Shown one piece after another: positions 37,183-47,679 of a stretch of 64,000 bases of DNA (position 1 is the first letter of the stretch; each line of letters begins with the position of its first letter). Both the position numbers and the translations under genes were made by a program. The notes under the pieces were generated by a model. The model saw nothing but the letters and a program-made list of their open reading frames with translations. It was not told where the DNA came from and made no database searches. This stretch comes from the human T2T-CHM13v2.0 reference genome, Homo sapiens: NCBI RefSeq assembly GCF_009914755.1, contig NC_060930.1; one strand, given 5' to 3'.

Positions 37183-37981
37183 AAAGGTACCTTTCTCAAG
37201 CTACAAAATTATTCTCTGTGTATTTAAATTCTCCCATTTTAAGCAAAGAGCAGAAGTCCACAGCTCTCACTGCCTTTTGTAAAAGTCTAAACCCATGAGG
37301 AGATGATGTTGGGTGTCAGGAACAGGAGAGAGGAGCAGCACCTTAGAGAGAACACAGTGGGGTGAGGAAGGGGAAATATTCTTCTCAATCCTGAAGGGGA
37401 GAAAGTGTTTTCTGCAAACCTGTCCTTCACCCGCCTTCAAATCAGCACCAGGAGGATATGCCCCAGAGACAACGGAAAGGACTCCAGACACAGGGCTCCC
37501 AGTCCCAGTCAAGATTCCCTCACCCACAAGTGACAAAGAAGCATCAGAGCCACAGGACTTGAAGGGACCTTGTGGGCCAGGACAGTGGAGACTTCTGGTG
37601 TGGCAGATGATTAAAACTGAGTCAGCCACTCGTCCTTTGTCACTGTAAGACCTGGCACATTTGGTGTGGGGAAAGCCCCAGCAATGACTGAAAATGAATC
37701 CTGGGCCCCCATCTCAGCAAGATGAGGGGCCAGAAACCAAGTACAAGATATCTGAAAGAAAGTAAAGAAGGACAGCTTTCCTGCATATGGAGTTTGTGAG
37801 CTGAGAGTTGTAAGGACCACACAGCAAAAGGAAAGGACGAAGACTTGCTAAATGGGGATGGGAAGGAAAGAGAAATTATTACCCATAGCAGGTGGGTATA
37901 GTTACCTGGAAATTGAATTATTTTGGCCTAAGCATTATTAAATATTTCAAGGTGCTTAACTTTTCTTAAAAGCGGCCTTCA

Positions 37982-38120
37982 AGGCCAGGCACGGTGACTC
38001 ACACCTGAAATCCCAATGCTTTGGAAGGCTGAAGCAGGAAGATTGCTTGAGCCCAGGAGTTTGAGGCTGCAGTGAGCACCGCTGCACTCCGCCAGCCTTG
38101 GTGGTAGAGCAAGATCCTGT
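37982..38120 (+). mobile_element. Alu monomer split by the provirus; its tail resumes at 46439
   Basis: ...AGCAAGATCCTGT | provirus | CTGTCTCAAACAAAAA rebuilds the Alu 3' end. Confidence 0.85.
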
Positions 38121-38691
38121 TGTTGAGGTAAACTGAGGAAAGGAGAGGCCAATATGAGAGAAACAAGAGGATTGTTTATTTTTAAGTACGCATCAGCCCA
38201 GTAGATTCATATCCAAAAAGCTGAGCATTAAACAAAGACAGAGCGGGGTTTTTATAAGCGGACTTACAATAAATAAAACAAAAGCAGTTAATCATAGATA
38301 GGTCACATAATCTATAGCACAGCATAACTTGTGGCCTTGCATAGCCAGTGGCCTTGTAGCTGCATTGAAAGAAAAACATGAACTGGCTAAATAGAGACAT
38401 TTGTAAAACAGAATCATGCTTAAGAAGCCTGGGAAAGGAGTAACAGTAAAAGAATTTGTCTTTCTCCTTTTTTTTCCCTTCAAGCTTGCTCTGGAGAGGG
38501 GGCGTCTGGAGCCCATTCCTTTGGCCTTGGCTTCTTAAACAGTGTTATTTTATAATTGTCCTTGAAGTGAGCTTGCTGCGCTTTCCCCTGCTAGGCAGAG
38601 GAACACTTGTTCTTTTCTTTTTAACCCTTGCCTTTCCTGTTACTTTTCTTAGAGTGAATGAATGCATATTTATTTGTAAATGTCTGCCTCA
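38121..38691 (-). mobile_element. 3' LTR of the provirus (LTR4-like)
   Basis: Minus strand TGAGGCAG...CAACA; TATAAAAA starting at 38256; AATAAA at 38180-38175; purine-rich PPT-like tract just outside (~38697-38714). Confidence 0.85.
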
Positions 38692-39681
38692 GTTTACCCC
38701 CTTTGATGCCTTTTATAAAATAAGTTTAATAGAAGGCATTACTATTACTTAGCTCTGCCTGTAGAGACAAGTTTTCTTCTTTAGACAAAGGTTGATATTT
38801 ATGCATAGCCATTAGCTGACTGGTAGTTTGCCTAGCTATTATTGCCTCTATAGTTGATTGAGTGCTTCTACCAAGGAGAGGTAAGAGACAAAGGAGTATT
38901 AAGCAACTCCTAGTATGACCAGAACCACTCCTATTAAAGTCTTGAACCCTCCAAAAAAATGAAAACCAGCCTCCAAAGAATCTAGAGCCCACCCTTTCCA
39001 AGTTTGAACTGGAACATGGGCTAATCTTCTCATTCTTGCAGTTATTTCCATAATTGCCTTTCCATTGTCATCGATTTCCAGGCAGCAATATGTTAGATTG
39101 AACTTTCCACATGCTCCTCCTTCCCGGGCTAGGAGGTAGTCTAAAGCTAATCTGTTCTGATAGATAGTGTTCCTCATTTTTGTGGCTTGCTGGGCCAGAT
39201 GGGTCCGGGTTCTCTTTTTGATAACGTATACGAAGGTTGCTGGGTATGTGTGTACGTAGACATGTATGGGGTAACCTGCACTCCACGTGGGTAAGTCTGG
39301 CTTTAAAATAGTGAAATTTACAGGATTACAGGTTTTTGCTTCACAATCTGGTTTCATCGGCATTTTGGTAAGTATAATTGACCTTTGTTGTGTGCTAGGG
39401 TGCTATGATATGCAATACCGACAGTCTTTCTCTGGGGTCCCAGGGGAACAAAGTGGAGTTACTCTTGGCATGCATACTTATTTGTAGTTATTTCTATAGT
39501 ATCTTTCCAAAGGTAAGTTTCCACAGACGGGTGAGTCTTGGTATGCTACCTGACAAGCATCAAAATACAGAGAAATAGGCCCTCAGTAAAAGGGAGGCAC
39601 CCTGGTTTGGTTTAAGAGGGGACCTTCTTTTGACCCTGCACGAATTTCAAACCATTCACCAATTGAAAACTTGGGGTCAGT

Positions 39682-40465
39682 CATTTATGCAGCCAACAGA
39701 CACATGAAAAAATGCTCATCATCACTGGTCACCAGAAAATGCAAATCAAAACCACAATGAGATACCATCTCACACCAGTTAGAATGGCAATCATTAAAAA
39801 GTCAGGAAACAACAGGTGCTGGACAGGATGTGGAGAAATAGGAACACTTTTACACTGTTGGTGGGAGTCTAAACTAGTTCAACCACTGTGGAAGATAGTG
39901 TGGCGATTCCTCAAGGATCTAGAACTAGAAATACCATTTGACCCAGCAATCCCATTACTGGGTATATACCCAAAGGATTATAAATCATGCTACTATAAAG
40001 ACACATGCACACATATGTTTATTGCTGCACTACTCGTAATAGCAAAGACTTGGAACCAACCCAAATGTCCATCAATGATACACTGGATTAACAAAATGTG
40101 GCACATATACACCATGGAATACTATGCAGCCATGAAAAAGGATGAGTCCATCTCCTTTCTAACAACATGGATGAAGCTGGAAACCATCATTCTGAGCAAA
40201 CTATTTCAAGGACAGATAAACACTGCATGTTCTCACTCATAGGTGGGAATTCAATGGGAAAACTTGGGACAGAGCAGGGAACATCACTGACCAGGGCCTG
40301 TCGTGGGGTGGGGGGCAGGGGGGAGGGATAGTATTAAGGGAAATACCTAATGTCAATGACGAGTTAATGGGTACAGCACACCAACATGGCACATATATAT
40401 ATATACCTGTGTGACAAACCTGCACATTGTGCACATGTACTCTAGAACTTATAATAAAAAGAAAA
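39682..40465 (+). mobile_element. L1PA 5'-truncated insertion (ORF2 C-terminus plus 3' UTR) inside env
   Basis: [37 protein letters not shown]2p C-terminus; degraded TSD GAAAACTT..TCA. Confidence 0.93.
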
Positions 40466-40644
40466 CTTTAAGATCATAAGGTTGGTTATTTCCTGGGTCA
40501 CAAATTGAGTACGTGGTCTGATTATAAACACAAGTTCCTAAGCAAGTCCCTGTACACCAATAATTATGGTACAACAGCGTTCTGGTTATACTGTTCCCAG
40601 ACGAAGTAGTATGTGTACAGTGGGGACACCCTTCTGTGGGTGCT

Positions 40645-42076
40645 TGAGTCTACAATTGGTGGGTTTTATGGTCTCACTGACTTCAAGAACAAAGCCGCTG
40701 ACCCTTGTAGTGAGGGTTAGAGTTCTTAAAGGATGCATATCTGGAGTTTGTTCCTTCTGACACTTGGATGTGTTCAGTTTCTTCCTTCTGGTGGGGTTCG
40801 TGGTCTCGCTGGCTCAGGAGGTAAGCTGCAAACCTTCGCGGTGAATGTTACGGCTCTTAAGGCACGGCATCTGGAGCTATTCACTCCTCCCAGAGAGTTC
40901 ATGGTCTTGCTGGTTTCAGGAATGAAACTGCAGACCTTCACAAATGAGGGTCACAGCTCATACAGGCAGTGTACACCCAAAGAGTGAGCAGCAACAAGAC
41001 TTACTGCAAAACACAAAAGAACAAATATTCCACAATATTAAAGGCAAGCGCAGCAGGTTGCTATTGCTGGCTCGGGCAGCCTGCTTTTATTCTCTTATCT
41101 GGCCCCACCCACTTCCTGCTGATTGGTCCATTTTACAGAGAGCCAAGTGGTCTGTTTTGACAGGGTGCTGATTGGTGCGTTTACAATCCCTGAGCTAGAC
41201 ATAAAGGTTCTCCATGTCCCCACTAGATAAGCTAGATACAGAGTGTCAATTGGTGCATTCACAAACCCTGAGCCAGACACAGGGTGCTGATTGGTGTGTT
41301 TACAAACCTTGAGCTAGATACAGAGTGCTGATTGGTGTATTTACAATCCCTTAGCTAGACATAAAGGTTCTCCAAGTCCCCACTAATCAGGAGCCCAGCT
41401 GGCTTTACCCAGAGCATCCCGCACTGGGGCTGCAGGTGGAGCTGCCTGCCAGTCCCATGCCATGCGCGCCGACACTCCTAAGCCTTTGGGTGGTCAATGG
41501 AACTGGGCGCCGTGTAGCAGAGGGCGGCACTCTTCGGGGAGGCTTGGACAGCACAGGAGCCCACGGAAGGGGGTGGGGAGGCTCAGGCATGGTGGGCTGC
41601 AGGTCCCCAGCCCAGCCCAGCCCCGCCCCGCCCCGCCCCGCCCTGCGGGGAGGCAGTAAAGGCCCGGCCAGAAATCGAGCGCAGCGCCGGTGGGCCGGCA
41701 CTGCTGGGGGACCCAGCCCACTCTCCGCAGCTGCTGGCCCAGGTGCTAAGCCCCTCATTGCCCCGGGCTGGCAGCCGGCCAGGCGCTCCGAGTGCGGGGC
41801 CCGCCATGCCCACAGCCACCCGGAACTCGTGCTGGCCCGCAAGCACCGCGCGCAGCCCGGGTTCCGCCCGCGTCTCTTTCTCCACACCTCCCTGCAAGCT
41901 GAGGGAGCTGGCTCCGGCCTCTGCTAGCCCAGGAAGGGGCTCCCACAGTGCAGCGGCGGGCTGAAGGGTTCCTCAAGTGCCGCCAAAGTGGGAGCCCAGG
42001 CAGAGGAAGCGCCGAGAGTGAGCGAAGGCTGTGAGGGCTGCTAGTACCACAGCTGCCAGCATGCTGTCACCTCTCA
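40645..42076 (-). mobile_element. ERV9/LTR12 solo LTR inserted in the 5' part of env
   Basis: Termini TGAGTCTACAATTGGTGGG / CTGTCACCTCTCA; CCAAT tandem repeats; env reading resumes on both sides; TSD degraded (CTTC). Confidence 0.92.
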
Positions 42077-42299
42077 CTTCTAGCATGGTTAAGGGGGGTA
42101 ACAACAACAAAACAATGCACAGCATATTCATATCCAGCAAGGACAAAAGAGGTCCTTACCTGGGGAAGGAGGTTGAGCACAGCAACAAAACAATAGTAAA
42201 ACAGTATTACAGGAAAGCTTCTAGTCCTAAGATTTCTAGCTACATTTATTTGCTTGACGAATCAAGCTTCAGTCCTGCATAGACTAGTCAGCTTCTGGT

Positions 42300-43426
42300 G
42301 TGTGACTAGAGCAAGGATTGTTGTTTCCTCAAGCTTCAGCCATGCATAGACTGGTCAGCCTCCGGAGTGAGCAGAGCAGGGCTGTCGTCCTCAGCAGCAA
42401 CTCTGTCTTGTCGCAGGATCAGCCGGGTCAAATGGTCTGGGTTCTGCTGACTGGTTTACTTGTACCTGAGCTGCCAGTTTCAGCCAACTGTGGTGGATCC
42501 AAGGCATAACACCTGCAACTTTAACAGCAGTAGGAGTGAACAAGATTACCGTATGGGGCCCATCCCACATGGGTCTTAGGAAGTTGGGTTCTACTTTTTA
42601 ACTTAAACAACAGAATCTCTAGGTTTAAATGGGTGTCAGGTTTATAGGCATTTTTTCATGTACCTAATTATGAACACTTCGCATGGCTATTTCTAAAGCC
42701 TGCATTTGTTTTCTTAAAGTTAATCCCCTAGTTCCTGGAGATCACCTTTAATTTGACCTATGGTTTTGGGGTGGCCAACTGAACAAAATCTTATAGGGCA
42801 AATACCCAGTTTGTTTGGTGGGGGTGCACCTGACTCAGAGGAGGACCACAGGCAAAACCTGATCCTATCTCAGATGAGGTTCCTGGCAATATTTCTTCAG
42901 TAGCTGCTTGAGTGTCCAGTTCATGCGTTCCACTTTTCCTGAATTTTGCGGCCGAAGGCTGTGTGTAGCTTCCATTTTATTTTCAACAGTTTTGTTAAAT
43001 CTTGCACTATTTCAGCTACAAATGCCGACCCATTGTCTGACTTTAAAGTTAGAGGCAGTCCAAACCTGAGGGTAATGTCTCTTAACAGTACTTTAGTCAC
43101 TTCTCGTGCTTTTTCTGTCCTGGTGGGGGAGGCCTCAATCCATCCTGAAAAAGGTGCAAATAAACACTAGCATATACCAATAGCCTCTGGCGTGAGGCAT
43201 TTCGGTAAAGTTTATAAGCAAGTCTCACAAGGAATGAAGGCATGGCTCCTTCTCCTGTTCAGTTTCCCAGAGAAGGGATTCTTGTTCTCCCCACCTTTGT
43301 AACTTTATATAGTGGCGTAGCCATCAGTGAGAAACTTGGAATCCAGATACACAGAATCCTGCTGCCTTCAACTTCTAATGTGACCATGGGCTCCTGGAGA
43401 CCTGATGAAAAGGAGCCCGGTTTGTC
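42300..43426 (-). pseudogene. ERV pro/pol remnants (start of protease, short RT 3' piece, integrase) with two large deletions
   Basis: QEPMVTLEV after the gag stop; FCVSGF/ATPLYKVTK RT-like piece; integrase-like TLKSDNGSAFVAEIV and QNSGKVERMN. Confidence 0.8.
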
Positions 43427-45320
43427 CTAGTCCTCACATCCTTCAGCTCCTGCCAGCCCGAGCAGATGAGCATCTGGTCTTTCTAAGGTGTGGCAGCCCT
43501 TGGCCGATGACTTCTTTATACCACAGCTTTACCACTCTCTTTATTACCTTCTGGACATTTATCCTTCCAGGGTCCTTTCTTTTTCCGTCTCACACATTGA
43601 TCTCTTTCTAGCCTTGTCGGGCTCTCAAATCCCTGCCTAACTTGACCCCTTCCACGTCCACATCCTTGTCCACGTCCTCTCACATTGCTAATCTCTTTTT
43701 CTATAAAGACTGCTGCCAACAGATCCGCATTTTTCTTAAGTCTTTGCTCTGCTTTCTTTTTCCTTCCTGAGTTCTGCTCCTACGGCTGGCAGGGCCAGGC
43801 ACACGGGCTCTGCCCCCACGCACGCACTGCCATCGGTCTTTTCTGTTTCTTTCCAATTTTCCTTTTTACTTTCTTCTTTCCTTTTTCACACTTACTCTTA
43901 CTTTCTCCCTTCCTTCTCCTTTGCTCTGCTCCCATGCGGGTCCCTGCCTCCCTCTTTTTCCAGATAGAGCTGGGCTGGGGAAAGGGACTTAACCCTTAGC
44001 GTGCCTGGCTGCCTGGTGCCGTGCTTGTTGCTTTCGCTCTTTCCCATTTGTTCCCTGGTCACGGTTAACATACACCTTGGTGGCCACTTTTATAAGCTGG
44101 GTGGCATTCATGCCTGAAGTTTCCGCTTGATGTCACCCTGGGCTTGCCCTACAAATGCTGTGTTTACCATGTGCTGATTTTCAGCAGCCTCAGGGTCAAA
44201 TGGGGTGTAAAACCAGGATGCTTCACAAAGTCTCTGATAAAAGTGACTTAGGCTCTTGTCAGCTCCCTGAAGCACTTCTGAAATCTTCCTTATATTAATT
44301 GCTTTCTTTTTATTAGCTCTTATCCCCTGCAAAAGCGACCTTTTGGTACCTCTGCAAACGCTGAAGCTGAGTTGCATCCTCCGGGTCCCCCCTGGGGTCT
44401 TGGTCTGGGAGCTGACCCTGAGCGTATGCCTGAGCATTCACTGTGTCTTCTGGTGCCTGGGCTTCCAGCCAGAGGCGAGCTGCCTGTGTTACTCTCCTGC
44501 ACTCCTCAGTGTTAAATAATGTGAGGAGGAGCTGCCTGCAGTCTGGCCAGGTTGGATTGTGTGTCAGAAAGATGGATTGCCTCAGATCTATAAGAGCTTG
44601 GGGCTTCTCCATGTAGGAGGGAGTATGGTGTTTCCAGTTTAAAAGATCAGTGGTTGAAAAGGCTGGTAGACCAAAGTCTGTCGGCCCCCTGGACCTGGCT
44701 TTGGTCATCATAATAAATGGGTTCTCGTGTCTCCCTGAGAGGCATTTGCATAGCTCAAGCATGGCGAGATCTGAGATGACCTGCTTGACTATCTTGACTT
44801 CCTTCCCTGATCTCTCGAGGCTCCGATTCTCCCCTTTGGGGTGAAACTTGGGGCGTGCTAGCTCCTGAATCTGGTTCCTGGAGGGCTGTTAGCCTCGGTA
44901 AAGGGGGGTAGCCTGGGACATATGGAGAAAGAATCTCTGTTCCTTCTGGTAGCTCCTGCAAAACTGGCTTCTCTCGCTTTCTCTGGGACTTCCCTTTAAC
45001 TCTGTGTCTGCCAGTGAAGCTGCTAAATAGGGCTGGATCCAGGCCGGTCTTGTCTGTGCTATATTTAACCATAAATCAATTTAAGGAAATTTGGGTACCC
45101 TGGCTGTCCTCCAACCCCTGTCACCACCTTAAATGCATGGCCAGTTATTCCTATCTATAGTTCTTTTGGTCAGCCATCCCACACTAAAAGGCCATTTTAA
45201 TTCACAGAGAGTTCCCAACCTTTAGGGGGTTAGCTTAACTCCATAATCCCTTGCAAAACCTTTCTTAAAGTTTTGTAACGTGCACTCCAATGGAGTAAGT
45301 TTTGATGACTTTCCTCCTAT
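43427..45320 (-). pseudogene. ERV gag pseudogene
   Basis: (M>I)GGKSSKLTPLECTLQNFKKGF; FSTTDLLNWKHHTPSY; THNPTWPDCRQLL; QGADKSLSHFYQRLCEA (MHR-like); degenerate zinc knuckle CVRRKKKGPWKDKC; TAG at 43429-43427. Confidence 0.88.
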
Positions 45321-45644
45321 CCTCCCTTTACGACGCCGCACAATCACTCTCGCACACTCACTCTTCCTCTCGTTTCGGCCGACTATACTGTCTCTTATTA
45401 TGGGAGTTTTCAGATGCTGCTTGGCTTTGGAGAGTTCTTTATTTCTACTACAACTCTGAGCTGTAGGGCAGCTCCTATTAGCCATATGCAGATCGCCACT
45501 AGTCTTAGTTGACCCTACACTTTCTCAGAGCATATAGTCCATGCTAAGAGATCTGTGACTCCCAGCTTCGTGGCTGATTAGTCTAATTAGGCTCCTCCAT
45601 TCACACATTTTCACACACTTTCCCACTCCCAGTTCCCGTGTTCA

Positions 45645-45870
45645 TAACTGGGGTGGCGTGCCTCTCTTGCCCCCTCTAGTTTCCCAGTTGGGGTGGTGAG
45701 CCACTCTCGCCACCTCCAGTTTCCTAGCTGACTTAGCGAGCCACTCTGGCCACTTCCAGTTTCCTAGCTGACTTGGCGAGCCACTCTCGCCACCTCCAGT
45801 TTCCTAGTTGGGGTGGCAGGCCACTCTCACCACCTCCAGTTTCCTAGCAGACTTAGCGAGCCACTCCTGT
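45645..45870. repeat. ~39-bp tandem repeat in the proviral leader (about 5 copies)
   Basis: GAGCCACTCTCGCCACCTCCAGTTTCCTAG unit repeated. Confidence 0.85.
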
Positions 45871-46237
45871 GTCCTGTGTCAGCTAGGGTGTGAGTTTCAT
45901 CCAAATTGACGAGCCACTCCAGGTGCCCCCAGCCCCTCTGAGTTGGACTATTCAGCCCACCCCAGGAGGTGATCAGGCTCCCCTTCCATCCCATTGGGAC
46001 AGGTCCTGCCTTGGGCCCTAAAACCTTACTGCAGTTTCTGACGCATGCTATTTCTGAAATCGTCCTGTAGCCCTTCTTTAGGTTTCGTTGTGCTGCTGTG
46101 TAGGGGCACTGGGTCACGAGAGAGCTAATCTTCCCTCCGGGCTGAAGTTCTCCTGGCAGCGCCTGAGGTCACAGGTTTTCCGAGGCCCAGGGCTCCAACC
46201 CCTAGAGGCAAAGGAGACAGTAAGCCTGCCATCTCCC

Positions 46238-46255
46238 GTCCCTTCGTGGTCGCCA
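46238..46255 (-). other. Primer-binding site (tRNA-Arg type)
   Basis: Minus strand TGGCGACCACGAAGGGAC, 4 nt after the U5 CA end. Confidence 0.85.
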
Positions 46256-46259
46256 AAAA

Positions 46260-46434
46260 TGTTGCAGGAAACTGAGGACCGGAGAGACTGATATGGAAAA
46301 CAGGAGGATTGTTTATTTTAGGTACGCACTGGCTCAGCTTTTTGGATATAAGTCCACTGAGCCAGTGTGTACCTAAAATAAACAATCCTCCTGTTCTCCA
46401 TATCAGTCTCTCCGGTCCTCAGTTTCCCACAACA
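46260..46434. repeat. Inverted repeat (78-bp arms, 19-nt loop) replacing the 5' LTR
   Basis: 46260-46337 is the reverse complement of 46357-46434 with 4 mismatches. Confidence 0.95.
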
Positions 46435-46453
46435 CTGTCTCAAACAAAAACAA

Positions 46454-46775
46454 GGCCAGGCACAGTGGCACTTGCCTATAATCACAGCACTTTGGGAGGC
46501 CAAGGCGGGTGGATCATCTGAGATCTAGAGTTCAAGACCAGTCTGGTCAACGTGGTGAAACCCTGTCTCTATTAAAAATACAAAAATTAGCCGGGCGTGG
46601 TGGTGCACGCCTGTAGTTCCAGCTACTCGGGAGGCTGAGGCGAAGAATCGCTTGAACCCAGGAGGCAGAGGTTGCAGTGAGCCTAGATCACGCCACTGCA
46701 CTCCAGCCTGGGTGACAGAGCAAGACTCCGTCTGAAAACAAAACAAAAAAAATGAAAACAAACAAACAAAAAAAG
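46454..46775 (+). mobile_element. Alu (AluS-like)
   Basis: Full dimer. Confidence 0.9.
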
Positions 46776-47679
46776 TGCTTTTCACAGGAGGGATTATGAG
46801 AAAATCAAGAAAAAGCTTTTTTTTTTTTTTTTTTTTTAAGGCTGGTTAAGTGAAGGAGCGGTACTGGAGAAGGAACAAAGAAATCTGTAACTGGCCGTGA
46901 TAAATTAGTTGTAAACACCACTGCAAGGAAAAGCCATGCTACATTCTTCTGTCAGTTAAAACTCAATGTCTGGGCTGGAAACACAATTGAATTAAGAAGT
47001 GGAGGCTCCATCTCAGTGAAAAATGTGGAAAACAGCATTTTTAATAAACTACCCAACACCAGATTAACTGGATTAAGGGAAGACTCTACGGGAATTTTAA
47101 TGTGGAGATTATTTTCTTCCCTTCTGCCTTATTTCTGACACAGAAGATTTTAATTAAAAGAAAGATCACCGGGATGGTAATGAGATGATTATGCCAGACT
47201 AATTTTGACTCATAATAACAACCTTAATAATAATACCATCACAGGTTTTAATCTCTAATGTTATTTTAAAAATAGAATCATATCCTGAAGGCAAACCCCC
47301 TCCTTTTGGTGTTGGATTTAGTAGTCTAAATTCCATTATGATGATACTGACTTGTCTATTTCAATAAGTGAAACAAACATATACATAGACACACACACAT
47401 TTTCCTGCCCCAAGAGACAAGCAAATTGAATTTATATCTACTTTCTCTGCAAAAATTGAGCTGGAAAAGCGAGGCATTATTCTCAGTGTGTATTGTCCAT
47501 CAGGGATGGCAAATTTAAACAACTGTTTATGTGCCAGGAGGGTCGAGTCAGGTTTATGCATTAGAGATCACCCATCCACCCCATCTAAAGAGACAACATT
47601 GATTCACTCTAGCAGATGGCAGACCTCTGAGGGGATGAACACCCTGCTAGGCCTCCCAGTTTTTAAAAGTAAGCTGGCT

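What the first reader, a model, noticed from the sequence alone, without database searches (positions are those of the whole stretch)
46238..46438. Provirus integrated with U5 at both ends: fossil of minus-strand strong-stop self-priming
Seen: there is no U3 upstream of the PBS. The proviral strand instead begins with antisense U5/R (46434 to 46357), runs through a 19-nt loop in antisense orientation, then continues as sense R-U5-PBS. The turn uses a short stem, GCTCAG..CTGAGC. In the intact 3' LTR the first base of that stem (38226) is exactly 30 nt from the start of TATAAAAA (38256), the predicted +1 and so the 3' end of strong-stop DNA. The outer CA is followed by CTGT, identical to the 4 bp at the other end, and the split Alu resumes there. 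Established: (-) strong-stop DNA can fold back and self-prime, as shown in vitro for HIV-1 TAR, where nucleocapsid suppresses it; integrase needs CA termini. Inference: a self-primed strong-stop product replaced the plus-strand strong-stop, and integrase inserted a U5/U5, promoterless genome into the germ line. I do not know of a described endogenous example but cannot search.
Basis: partly seen in the sequence, partly recalled or inferred. Interest (0 to 1): 0.88.

Follow-up and report, generated by a model that had tools for sequence, protein, structure and literature searches.

The report
Provirus with two U5 ends
An ancient human endogenous retrovirus lacks its upstream promoter and starts instead with a back-folded copy of its own R-U5 leader, which looks like a preserved mistake of reverse transcription that the same virus family made at several other places in the genome.

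Summary
A minus-strand ERV3 (HERV-R)-like provirus spans window 38121-46434. Its 5' end has no U3. It is a 78-nt inverted R-U5 (95% complementary arms, 19-nt spacer), followed by a tRNA-Arg(CCG) primer binding site. The outer arm ends in CA, and CTGT flanks both ends inside one split Alu.

The self-priming reading is supported and extended:
- **Recurrence.** The same turn, at the same GCTCAG/CTGAGC stem, occurs at four more human loci. Two are bare palindromes with their own 4-bp duplications (GCAC, AGAC). One is a second 5' proviral fragment with the same loop polarity. One X-linked element has the opposite loop polarity and carries a complete vault RNA copy.
- **Independence.** Each locus has private bases shared by both of its arms, so these are separate events.
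- **Two templates.** In the window provirus the palindrome and the 3' LTR R-U5 differ at 20 aligned columns and carry markers of two different family sublineages. A rearranged normal 5' LTR would not show this. Two strong-stop DNAs from a mixed virion would.

Untested: the transcription start site, primate orthologues, and biochemistry. Ten full-text searches found no earlier description. Older subscription papers were out of reach.

The parts
38117..38120 (.). Target-site duplication copy CTGT at the 3' end of the provirus, inside the left part of a split Alu
   Evidence: Direct reading. The LTR terminus at 38121 comes from the repeat finder D9 and I3.
38121..38226 (-). R-U5 of the 3' LTR. 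On the minus strand, GCTCAG starts at 38226 and U5 ends in CAACA at 38121. It carries 'group II' family markers.
38227..38693 (-). U3 of the 3' LTR. The 5' limit is approximate. TATAAAAA runs from 38256 down to 38249, 30 nt upstream of GCTCAG.
   Evidence: reading; family LTRs align from about query position 8-10 of 38700 downward..
38899..39402 (-). Env transmembrane-subunit open frame, ERV3-like
   Evidence: 54 hits, and named hits are mostly 'endogenous retrovirus group 3 member 1 Env'. PF00429, E 0.0093, below the curated cut-off.
42921..43166 (-). Integrase core fragment
   Evidence: PF00665, E 3.9e-10
44108..44888 (-). Gag p30 (capsid) fragments in two frames
   Evidence: PF02093, E 2.5e-16 and 2.5e-13
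46238..46255 (-). Primer binding site, complementary to the 3' end of tRNA-Arg(CCG) plus CCA
   Evidence: the 15-nt pattern from the window has 33 exact genome hits; the two fetched hits are tRNA-Arg(CCG) genes with the pattern at their 3' end.
46256..46259 (-). Four-base spacer (TTTT in sense) between the U5 CA and the PBS
   Evidence: Direct reading. The same spacer is present at the X locus.
46260..46337 (-). Inner arm: sense R (from CTGAGC) and U5, the part made by extension of the folded-back strong-stop DNA
46338..46356 (-). 19-nt loop, antisense relative to the provirus. It contains an inner 4-5 bp stem.
46357..46434 (+). Outer arm: R-U5 in inverted orientation, ending in CA at 46434. 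Together with the loop and GCTCAG (46332-46337), it reads on the window + strand as a full sense R-U5.
   Evidence: It is 85-94% identical to the R-U5 of 16 family LTRs.
46435..46438 (.). Target-site duplication copy CTGT at the 5' end. The Alu resumes here.
   Evidence: Direct reading

Best explanation
**What it is.** This is a germ-line insertion of an aberrant reverse-transcription product of an ERV3 (HERV-R)-like gammaretrovirus.

**Proposed steps.**
1. One tRNA-Arg-primed minus-strand strong-stop DNA was copied to the 5' end of its RNA.
2. Its 3' end (CTGAGC) folded back on GCTCAG. This is a bulged hairpin at the very start of R.
3. Reverse transcriptase extended it back through R and U5 and into the tRNA primer. 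The result was a hairpin strand: antisense R-U5, loop, sense R-U5, PBS.
4. This strand has the same 3' PBS end as plus-strand strong-stop DNA and took its place in the second strand transfer.
5. The minus strand itself was started by the second strong-stop DNA of the virion, made on a co-packaged RNA of another family sublineage, which performed the normal first jump.
6. Strand-displacement synthesis opened the hairpin. The linear DNA then had a U5 terminus at both ends and no 5' U3.
7. Integrase inserted it into an Alu with a 4-bp duplication.

**What is shown.** The structure, the termini, the duplication, the recurrence, and the two lineages.

**What is inferred.** That GCTCAG is +1, that folding was intramolecular, and that the hairpin strand served as the plus-strand primer.
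For: 1. **Geometry.** The arms are 78 nt and 95% complementary, with a 19-nt spacer. The sense strand reads full antisense R-U5, then sense R-U5 from CTGAGC, then TTTT and an 18-nt tRNA-Arg(CCG) PBS.
2. **Fold.** The strong-stop DNA rebuilt from the outer arm folds, as DNA, into a minimum-energy structure whose 3'-terminal six bases pair with GCTCAG across a 5-nt bulge and a 4-bp inner stem. That is a recessed 3' end ready for extension. The RNA folds the same way.
3. **Ends.** The outer arm ends in CA. CTGT lies on both sides, inside one Alu.
4. **Start of R.** The stem starts 30 nt after the first T of TATAAAAA in the 3' LTR.
5. **Recurrence.**
   - A 23-nt junction pattern (3 mismatches or fewer) has 15 hits against 0 for the reversed control. 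Of these, 5 are palindromes, 2 are one duplicated normal LTR, and 8 are unrelated.
   - Central 99-nt queries from three of the palindromes each recover the same 5 loci among 40 scored candidates.
   - All five turn at G(G/C)TCAG, 19 nt, CTGAGC.
   - The two bare palindromes have exact 4-bp duplications, GCAC and AGAC.
6. **Independence.** Each locus has private states shared by both of its arms.
7. **Loop polarity.** In both loci where the palindrome is followed by PBS and leader (window and chr11), the loop is antisense, as predicted.
8. **Two templates.**
   - The 3' LTR R-U5 differs from the palindrome at 20 aligned columns.
   - At columns 79 and 90 it shares its state with exactly the same 6 of 16 family LTRs. 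At column 101 it shares with 4 of those 6, and at column 80 with those 6 plus 2 others. Both arms carry the other state.
   - Tajima-type counts are 10-16 private changes for the 3' LTR against 1-6 for the palindrome with the 10 'group I' comparators. They are 8-10 against 6-7 with the 6 'group II' comparators.
   - The closest provirus (chr14) is 90% identical to the 3' U3 and 92% to the palindrome, but only 77% to the 3' R-U5.
9. **Background.** Self-priming of HIV-1 strong-stop DNA at the TAR complement is established in vitro (PMC6088434, passages). Intermolecular first jumps that give mosaic LTRs are established (PMC6894440, passages).
Against: - The transcription start of this family was not measured. 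Only the TATA distance supports it.
- The stem is short (6 bp plus 4-5 bp). The fold energy of the 103-nt strand (-7.2 kcal/mol) does not differ from shuffles (z -0.5; 59 of 200 shuffles fold at least as well).
- No orthologous or empty site could be examined.
- The X-linked palindrome has the loop in sense relative to its PBS. So at least one other route, a paused strong-stop DNA switching onto a finished one, makes the same palindrome. Bare palindromes cannot be assigned to either route.
- The 3' R-U5 carries about 10 private changes that no compared copy shares. Its best genome match is 85%, so its source lineage is not otherwise represented.
- One of the four lineage-marker sites and its neighbour are CpG-derived and could recur.
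- U3 identities of 'group I' and 'group II' loci overlap: 80-90.5% against 73-87%.
- The two arms differ at only 4 of 78 sites, 3 of them at CpGs. That is low for a family said to be catarrhine-wide. It may mean gene conversion or a younger age.
Confidence: 0.78

Rival explanations
1. Cross-priming between two strong-stop DNAs instead of intramolecular fold-back. Either the 3' CTGAGC of one finished strong-stop DNA pairs with GCTCAG of the other, or a strong-stop DNA paused at the base of the RNA hairpin switches onto the 3' end of a finished one. The rest proceeds as in the main model.
For: The X locus has the loop in sense relative to the adjacent PBS. On the other strand it has a 10-nt copy of the tRNA 3' end directly 5' of the antisense R-U5. 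This fits a paused strand copying a finished, still tRNA-linked strong-stop DNA. The two bare palindromes have more divergent arms (9 mismatches plus 2 gap columns of 80, and 11 of 78), as expected if the two arms came from two different RNAs.
Against: In the window provirus the virion appears to have held two different lineages. Yet both arms carry the same lineage markers and differ at only 4 of 78 sites, which favours one molecule folding on itself. The paused-strand version predicts a sense loop. The window and chr11 have an antisense loop.
Confidence: 0.1
2. Post-integration rearrangement: a normal provirus lost U3 of its 5' LTR through a fold-back inverted duplication at the R hairpin during DNA replication or repair.
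For: Short inverted repeats can seed fold-back duplications in genomes (general knowledge). The arms are more alike (95%) than either is to the 3' LTR, as a later duplication would give.
Against: - The outer arm ends exactly at the U5 CA and abuts the same 4 bp as the 3' end inside one Alu. A later duplication would have to stop at that base.
- Two bare palindromes show the same exact ends with their own duplications.
- A rearranged 5' LTR should carry the lineage markers of the 3' LTR. It carries the other set.
- The same breakpoint at five independent loci is not expected from random repair.
Confidence: 0.03
3. Assembly artefact or chance palindrome.
For: None found.
Against: The structure occurs at five loci on four chromosomes of a telomere-to-telomere assembly, each with different flanks. 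The arms are 78-81 nt at 86-95% identity. The reversed-pattern control gave 0 hits.
Confidence: 0.01

Closest known systems
TAR-dependent self-priming of HIV-1 minus-strand strong-stop DNA in vitro (Guo et al. 1997; Driscoll and Hughes 2000; both seen only as citations and summary in PMC6088434, passages)
   Same: The 3' end of strong-stop DNA folds on the complement of a hairpin at the start of R and is extended by reverse transcriptase back through R and U5.
   Different: In that work the product is a dead end in a test tube. Nucleocapsid suppresses it, and it is not detected in endogenous reactions of HIV-1 particles. Here the product appears to have completed reverse transcription and been integrated and inherited, in a gammaretrovirus-like ERV with a much smaller hairpin.
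Moloney MLV provirus integrated through two U3 ends, with LTRs in inverted orientation (Colicelli and Goff 1988; recalled, not seen in any call)
   Same: Integrase used two copies of the same viral end, and the provirus has an abnormal LTR arrangement with a normal duplication.
   Different: That case used two U3 ends in a cultured-cell mutant. This one uses two U5 ends joined through an R hairpin, lacks a 5' U3 entirely, and is a germ-line fossil.
Solo LTRs
   Same: The two bare palindromes are short remnants flanked by a 4-bp duplication. They could arise by recombination between the inner arm and the R-U5 of a 3' LTR.
   Different: They contain no U3 and are inverted repeats rather than a single LTR. 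Only about 80 bp of homology would be available. Direct integration of a short palindromic duplex is an open alternative.
L1 twin-priming inversions (Ostertag and Kazazian 2001; seen only as a citation in PMC4476161)
   Same: An error in priming during reverse transcription leaves an inverted 5' segment flanked by a normal target-site duplication.
   Different: That mechanism is target-primed on chromosomal DNA by a non-LTR element. This one happens inside a retroviral core before integrase-mediated insertion.
snRNA/retroviral recombinant pseudogenes (Giles et al. 2004; seen only as described in PMC4476161) and vault RNA packaging by MLV (PMC4378196, passages)
   Same: The X-linked element carries a complete vault RNA copy inside retroviral sequence, as expected if a packaged host RNA was copied by template switching.
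   Different: The captured RNA is a vault RNA. It sits between a tRNA-primer copy and leader and U3 fragments of an element that also has the R-hairpin palindrome. I found no paper linking this pseudogene to a retrovirus (the one paper listed concerns exosomal RNA by its title and abstract, and I did not read it).

Membership tests
Integrated product of self-primed minus-strand strong-stop DNA | A complete antisense R-U5 directly joined, through a turn at a stem at the 5' end of R, to sense R-U5 | tested here: met
   The outer arm plus loop reads as a full R-U5, 85-94% identical to 16 family LTRs.
Integrated product of self-primed minus-strand strong-stop DNA | The loop is antisense relative to the downstream PBS and leader | tested here: met
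   True of the window and chr11, that is 2 of 2 loci with PBS plus leader. The X locus, which has a different downstream structure, has the opposite polarity.
Integrated product of self-primed minus-strand strong-stop DNA | No U3 upstream. The outer end is a U5 terminus ending in CA, with a target-site duplication matching the 3' end. | tested here: met
   CTGT at 38117-38120 and 46435-46438
Integrated product of self-primed minus-strand strong-stop DNA | The stem begins at the transcription start, so that strong-stop DNA ends in the pairing bases | tested here: inconclusive
   Only the 30-nt distance from TATAAAAA and the identical turn at five loci. No CAGE or RACE data are available.
Integrated product of self-primed minus-strand strong-stop DNA | The strong-stop DNA of this family self-primes with reverse transcriptase | not testable with these tools
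   Only a predicted fold with a recessed 3' end. The energy is not different from shuffles.
ERV3 (HERV-R)-like class I endogenous retrovirus | Gamma-type gag, pol and env, a tRNA-Arg PBS, an LTR with TG...CA ends, and a 4-bp duplication | tested here: met
   Pfam gag p30 and integrase. Env hits are named ERV3-1 Env. The PBS matches tRNA-Arg(CCG). The locus I take to be ERV3-1 itself, by recalled map position, is only 70-74% identical in gag and leader (chr7:66.2 Mb). So this is a related group, not ERV3 proper.
Post-integration fold-back duplication of a normal 5' LTR | The 5' R-U5 has the same origin as the 3' LTR R-U5 | tested here: not met
   20 differing columns. Lineage markers at columns 79, 80, 90 and 101 split the two. 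The relative-rate counts are asymmetric.

The most novel reading that the evidence does not exclude
Self-primed strong-stop DNA is not always a dead end. In this ERV3-like family it repeatedly stood in for plus-strand strong-stop DNA and produced promoterless proviruses with two U5 ends, and short 'U5 palindromes'.

The rate was high enough that about 3 of roughly 16 independent PBS-bearing copies scored here carry the turn. That count takes 17 normal junction loci and subtracts apparent duplicates. This would be an unrecognised class of retroviral insertion, likely to exist in other ERV families with a hairpin at +1.

The window provirus would also preserve both strong-stop DNAs of a single heterozygous virion.
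Probability: 0.45. Interest if true: 0.9.

Novelty: new variant of a known kind. Interest (0 to 1): 0.8.

Why it matters
- **In vivo evidence.** Self-priming of strong-stop DNA has been studied for decades as an in vitro side reaction that nucleocapsid exists to prevent. These loci would be natural evidence that it happens in vivo, that the product can finish reverse transcription, and that integrase accepts two U5 ends in the germ line.
- **A readable record.** One provirus appears to record the fate of both strong-stop DNAs of one virion.
- **A search rule.** Look for an inverted R-U5 next to a PBS, or alone, with a duplication. This could find more such fossils and clean up repeat annotation.
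- **Promoterless insertions.** Such proviruses may be fixed more easily than normal ones.
- **Vault RNA.** The X-linked element suggests that one human vault RNA pseudogene was made inside a retroviral particle.

Tried and rejected
- **Loop-agnostic stem pattern.** TGGCTCAG, 19 N, CTGAGCCA with 1 mismatch gave 124 hits per strand, mostly unrelated. I replaced it with a junction pattern.
- **ERV3-1 check.** I fetched chr7:65.667 Mb expecting ERV3-1, but it has no open frame of 300 aa or more. I named the family from env homologues instead.
- **3' end of the chr11 element.** No further family LTR lies within 13.5 kb downstream, so its duplication could not be tested.
- **APOBEC-type hypermutation of the 3' R-U5.** By eye, the differences are a mix of transitions in both directions, transversions and indels. 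I dropped the idea.
- **Dating from the host Alu.** By eye it looks like an old, internally shortened Alu, which gives no useful bound.
- **Rfam hits on the X palindrome.** The microRNA-family hits are all far below their gathering scores. I take them as hairpin noise.
- **Literature.** Ten searches and passages of seven papers gave no description of an endogenous provirus with an inverted R-U5 5' end. The key ERV3-like survey (Andersson et al. 2005) is not held.

Full report
**1. The observation**

The repeat finder on window 37900-46900 reports arms 46260-46337 and 46357-46434. They are 78 nt long, 95% complementary and 19 nt apart.

Read on the minus strand, the element starts at 46434. It then runs as follows:
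- an inverted U5-R, beginning TGTTG;
- a turn at GCTCAG, 19 nt, CTGAGC;
- sense R-U5, ending CAACA at 46260;
- TTTT;
- an 18-nt primer binding site (46255 to 46238);
- the leader.

There is no U3 on this side.

The 3' LTR lies at about 38693-38121, and its U5 end is at 38121. CTGT precedes it (38117-38120) and follows the outer arm (46435-46438). The flanks continue as the tail of one Alu (by reading).

In the 3' LTR, GCTCAG starts 30 nt after the first T of TATAAAAA (38256 to 38226).

**2. What the element is**

The element is a class I provirus on the minus strand.
- Open frames match Gag p30 (44108-44888) and the integrase core (42921-43166).
- The env transmembrane frame (38899-39402) finds 54 homologues. 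The named ones are mostly 'endogenous retrovirus group 3 member 1 Env'. The best is an unnamed 604-aa protein at 78% identity.
- The 15 bases of the PBS complement occur at the 3' end of tRNA-Arg(CCG) genes.

So this is an ERV3 (HERV-R)-like provirus. It is not ERV3 proper. A chr7:66.2 Mb locus, which I take to be ERV3-1 by recalled position, is only 70-74% identical in gag and leader.

A review states that the human genome holds about 40 ERV3-like elements. Its abstract says ERV3 is confined to Catarrhini (PMC5775217, passages and abstract).

Most of pro-pol is missing. Other repeats are inserted between integrase and env.

**3. The same turn elsewhere in the genome**

A 241-nt query over the finding showed that some loci match across the whole inverted repeat in one piece.

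A 23-nt pattern spans the only junction that a normal LTR lacks: the end of the antisense arm, GCTCAG, and the start of the loop. With up to 3 mismatches it has 15 hits, against 0 for the reversed control. Inspection of all 15 gives:
- 5 palindromes;
- 2 copies of one duplicated normal LTR on chr17;
- 8 unrelated sequences.

Central 99-nt queries taken from the window, chr11 and X palindromes each return the same five loci among 40 scored candidates. The candidate totals were 85, 62 and 83. All other scored loci match one arm plus loop only. Unscored candidates remain, so five is a lower bound.

The five loci are these:

| Locus | Form | Arm differences | Duplication |
|---|---|---|---|
| Window | Provirus with 3' LTR | 4 of 78 | CTGT / CTGT |
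| chr6:47.37 Mb | Bare palindrome | 9 mismatches plus 2 gap columns of 80 | GCAC / GCAC |
| chr12:4.24 Mb | Bare palindrome | 11 of 78 | AGAC / AGAC (one terminal base changed) |
| chr11:125.54 Mb | Palindrome, a degenerate PBS-like stretch, about 470 bp of leader, then truncated | 4 of 81 | Not testable |
| chrX:52.75 Mb | Complex element (section 6) | 5 of 81 | Possibly CGTA / CATA |

- At chr11 no further family LTR lies within 13.5 kb.
- All five turn at the same stem with a 19-nt loop.
- Each has private bases shared by both of its arms, and each has different flanks. They are therefore independent events, and the arms were copies of one another when formed.

In one search, 17 loci show the normal single R-U5 plus PBS plus leader junction. 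Four acrocentric copies and two chr1 copies look like duplicates, which leaves about 13 independent loci. Three loci have the turn next to a PBS. So the aberrant form is not rare in this family among the copies scored.

**4. Mechanism**

The outer arm, the loop and GCTCAG together read on the window + strand as a complete sense R-U5. It is 85-94% identical to 16 family LTRs. Its reverse complement is the strong-stop DNA.

Folded as DNA, the last six bases of this strand pair with GCTCAG across a 5-nt bulge and a 4-bp inner stem. This leaves a recessed 3' end. The RNA forms the same bulged hairpin at its 5' end. The energies are modest and no better than shuffles (z -0.5 and -0.9), so the fold is permissive rather than compelling.

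Extension of that 3' end gives antisense R-U5, antisense loop, sense R-U5, and then a copy of the tRNA primer, which is the PBS. That is the order seen in the window and at chr11, including the loop polarity.

Such a strand ends like plus-strand strong-stop DNA and can pair with the PBS complement at the end of a full minus strand. Displacement synthesis would then open the hairpin and create a left end identical to a normal U5 end. Integrase would see two U5 ends. The CA terminus and the 4-bp duplication fit this.

Self-priming of HIV-1 strong-stop DNA is established in vitro. It is described there as a dead end that nucleocapsid suppresses, and as not detected in endogenous reactions of HIV-1 particles (PMC6088434, passages).

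**5.

A strong-stop DNA that self-primes cannot make the first jump. The model therefore needs the second strong-stop DNA of the virion. If the two packaged RNAs differed, the palindrome and the 3' LTR R-U5 should differ by ancestry. They do.
- **Number of differences.** The 3' R-U5 differs from the palindrome at 20 aligned columns.
- **Lineage markers.** At columns 79 and 90 its state is shared by exactly the same 6 of 16 comparator LTRs. At column 101 it is shared by 4 of those 6, and at column 80 by those 6 plus 2 others. Both arms have the alternative state.
- **Relative-rate counts.** With the 10 comparators of the palindrome's group, changes private to the 3' R-U5 number 10-16, against 1-6 private to the palindrome. 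With the other 6 comparators the counts are 8-10 against 6-7.
- **Closest relative.** The closest related provirus (chr14:17.89 Mb) is 90% identical to the 3' U3 and 92% to the palindrome, but only 77% to the 3' R-U5.

So the 3' LTR looks like a mosaic. Its R-U5 comes from one lineage and its U3 from the palindrome's lineage. An intermolecular first jump produces exactly this kind of mosaic (PMC6894440, passages).

A rearranged normal 5' LTR would carry the 3' LTR's markers. That rival is therefore disfavoured.

Caveats:
- Columns 79 and 80 are CpG-derived.
- U3 identities of the two groups overlap.
- About 10 changes in the 3' R-U5 are shared with no compared copy, and its best genome match is 85%.

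**6. The X-linked locus**

Read on the strand that puts U3 first, the element has this order:
- part of U3;
- 18 nt of leader;
- a complete vault RNA (Rfam RF00006, 74.7 bits, model positions 1-99 of 99);
- the last 10 nt of the tRNA;
- AAAA;
- the full antisense R-U5;
- sense R-U5 ending in CA at the flank.

Relative to its PBS the loop is in sense, the opposite of the window.

The simplest reading is as follows. A strong-stop DNA paused at the base of the RNA hairpin and switched onto the 3' end of a finished, still tRNA-linked strong-stop DNA. It copied that into the primer, and then jumped to a packaged vault RNA and on to the leader and U3. This is inference.

The locus shows that the same stem supports a second route. 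It also ties a vault RNA copy to a retroviral particle. MLV virions hold about one vault RNA each (PMC4378196, passages). I recall that the X-linked vault pseudogene is called VTRNA3-1P, but no call confirmed the name.

**7. The bare palindromes**

Two origins are possible. I cannot tell them apart.
- Recombination between the inner arm and the R-U5 of a 3' LTR. This is the solo-LTR route, with only about 80 bp of homology.
- Direct integration of a short duplex, for example two self-primed strands paired with each other.

**8. Novelty and limits**

Ten full-text searches and passages of seven papers gave no description of an endogenous provirus or bare element with this structure.

The library lacks most older subscription papers. 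The main survey of ERV3-like elements is not held, and repeat-library annotations could not be consulted. The claim of novelty is therefore provisional.

No primate genome, CAGE data or biochemistry was available.

**9. Verdict**

It is strengthened by recurrence at five loci and by the two-lineage signature. It is broadened by a second route at the same hairpin.

Noticed in passing
L007:1417-1518 (+) = chrX:52748548-52748649, within L007:1200-1720: A complete vault RNA copy (Rfam RF00006, 74.7 bits, full model) sits inside an aberrant ERV3-like mini-element. It lies between an 18-nt leader fragment plus partial U3 on one side and a 10-nt copy of the tRNA-Arg 3' end plus the R-U5 palindrome on the other. 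A possible duplication is CGTA/CATA. It looks like a host RNA captured by template switching inside a virion. I recall this as the X-linked vault RNA pseudogene.
   Followed up: partly
window 38121-38693 (-): The 3' LTR appears to be a mosaic. Its U3 is closest (90%) to a chr14 provirus whose R-U5 is only 77% identical to this R-U5. About 10 changes in this R-U5 are shared with no compared copy.
   Followed up: partly
window 41150-41390 and 41355-41970: About 41-nt tandem units (repeat finder D2, D4) are followed by a very GC-rich stretch with long open frames on both strands, inside the provirus between integrase and env. It looks like another inserted repeat. The units remind me of ERV9 LTR repeats, which is recalled and not tested.
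   Followed up: no
window 39667-40242 (+): A 191-aa open frame lies on the opposite strand inside the provirus, in a stretch masked as repeat. Pfam gave no hit. From memory it resembles the end of L1 ORF2.
   Followed up: no
window 45641-45866 (-): Four to six 40-nt tandem repeats lie in the leader/gag region (repeat finder D1, D3). The chr11 fragment ends inside the matching region.
   Followed up: no
L026 (chr12:4236129-4236301): In this bare palindrome, 7 of the 11 arm differences are clustered in about 12 nt next to the turn.
   Followed up: no
window 46256-46259; also the X locus: Four T bases lie between the U5 CA and the PBS, rather than the two I recall as usual for gammaretroviruses. 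The viral DNA end would therefore carry four bases beyond CA.
   Followed up: no
window 46260-46434: The two arms differ at only 4 of 78 sites, and 3 of these are at CpGs. That is low for a family described as catarrhine-wide. It may reflect gene conversion between the close arms or a younger insertion.
   Followed up: no
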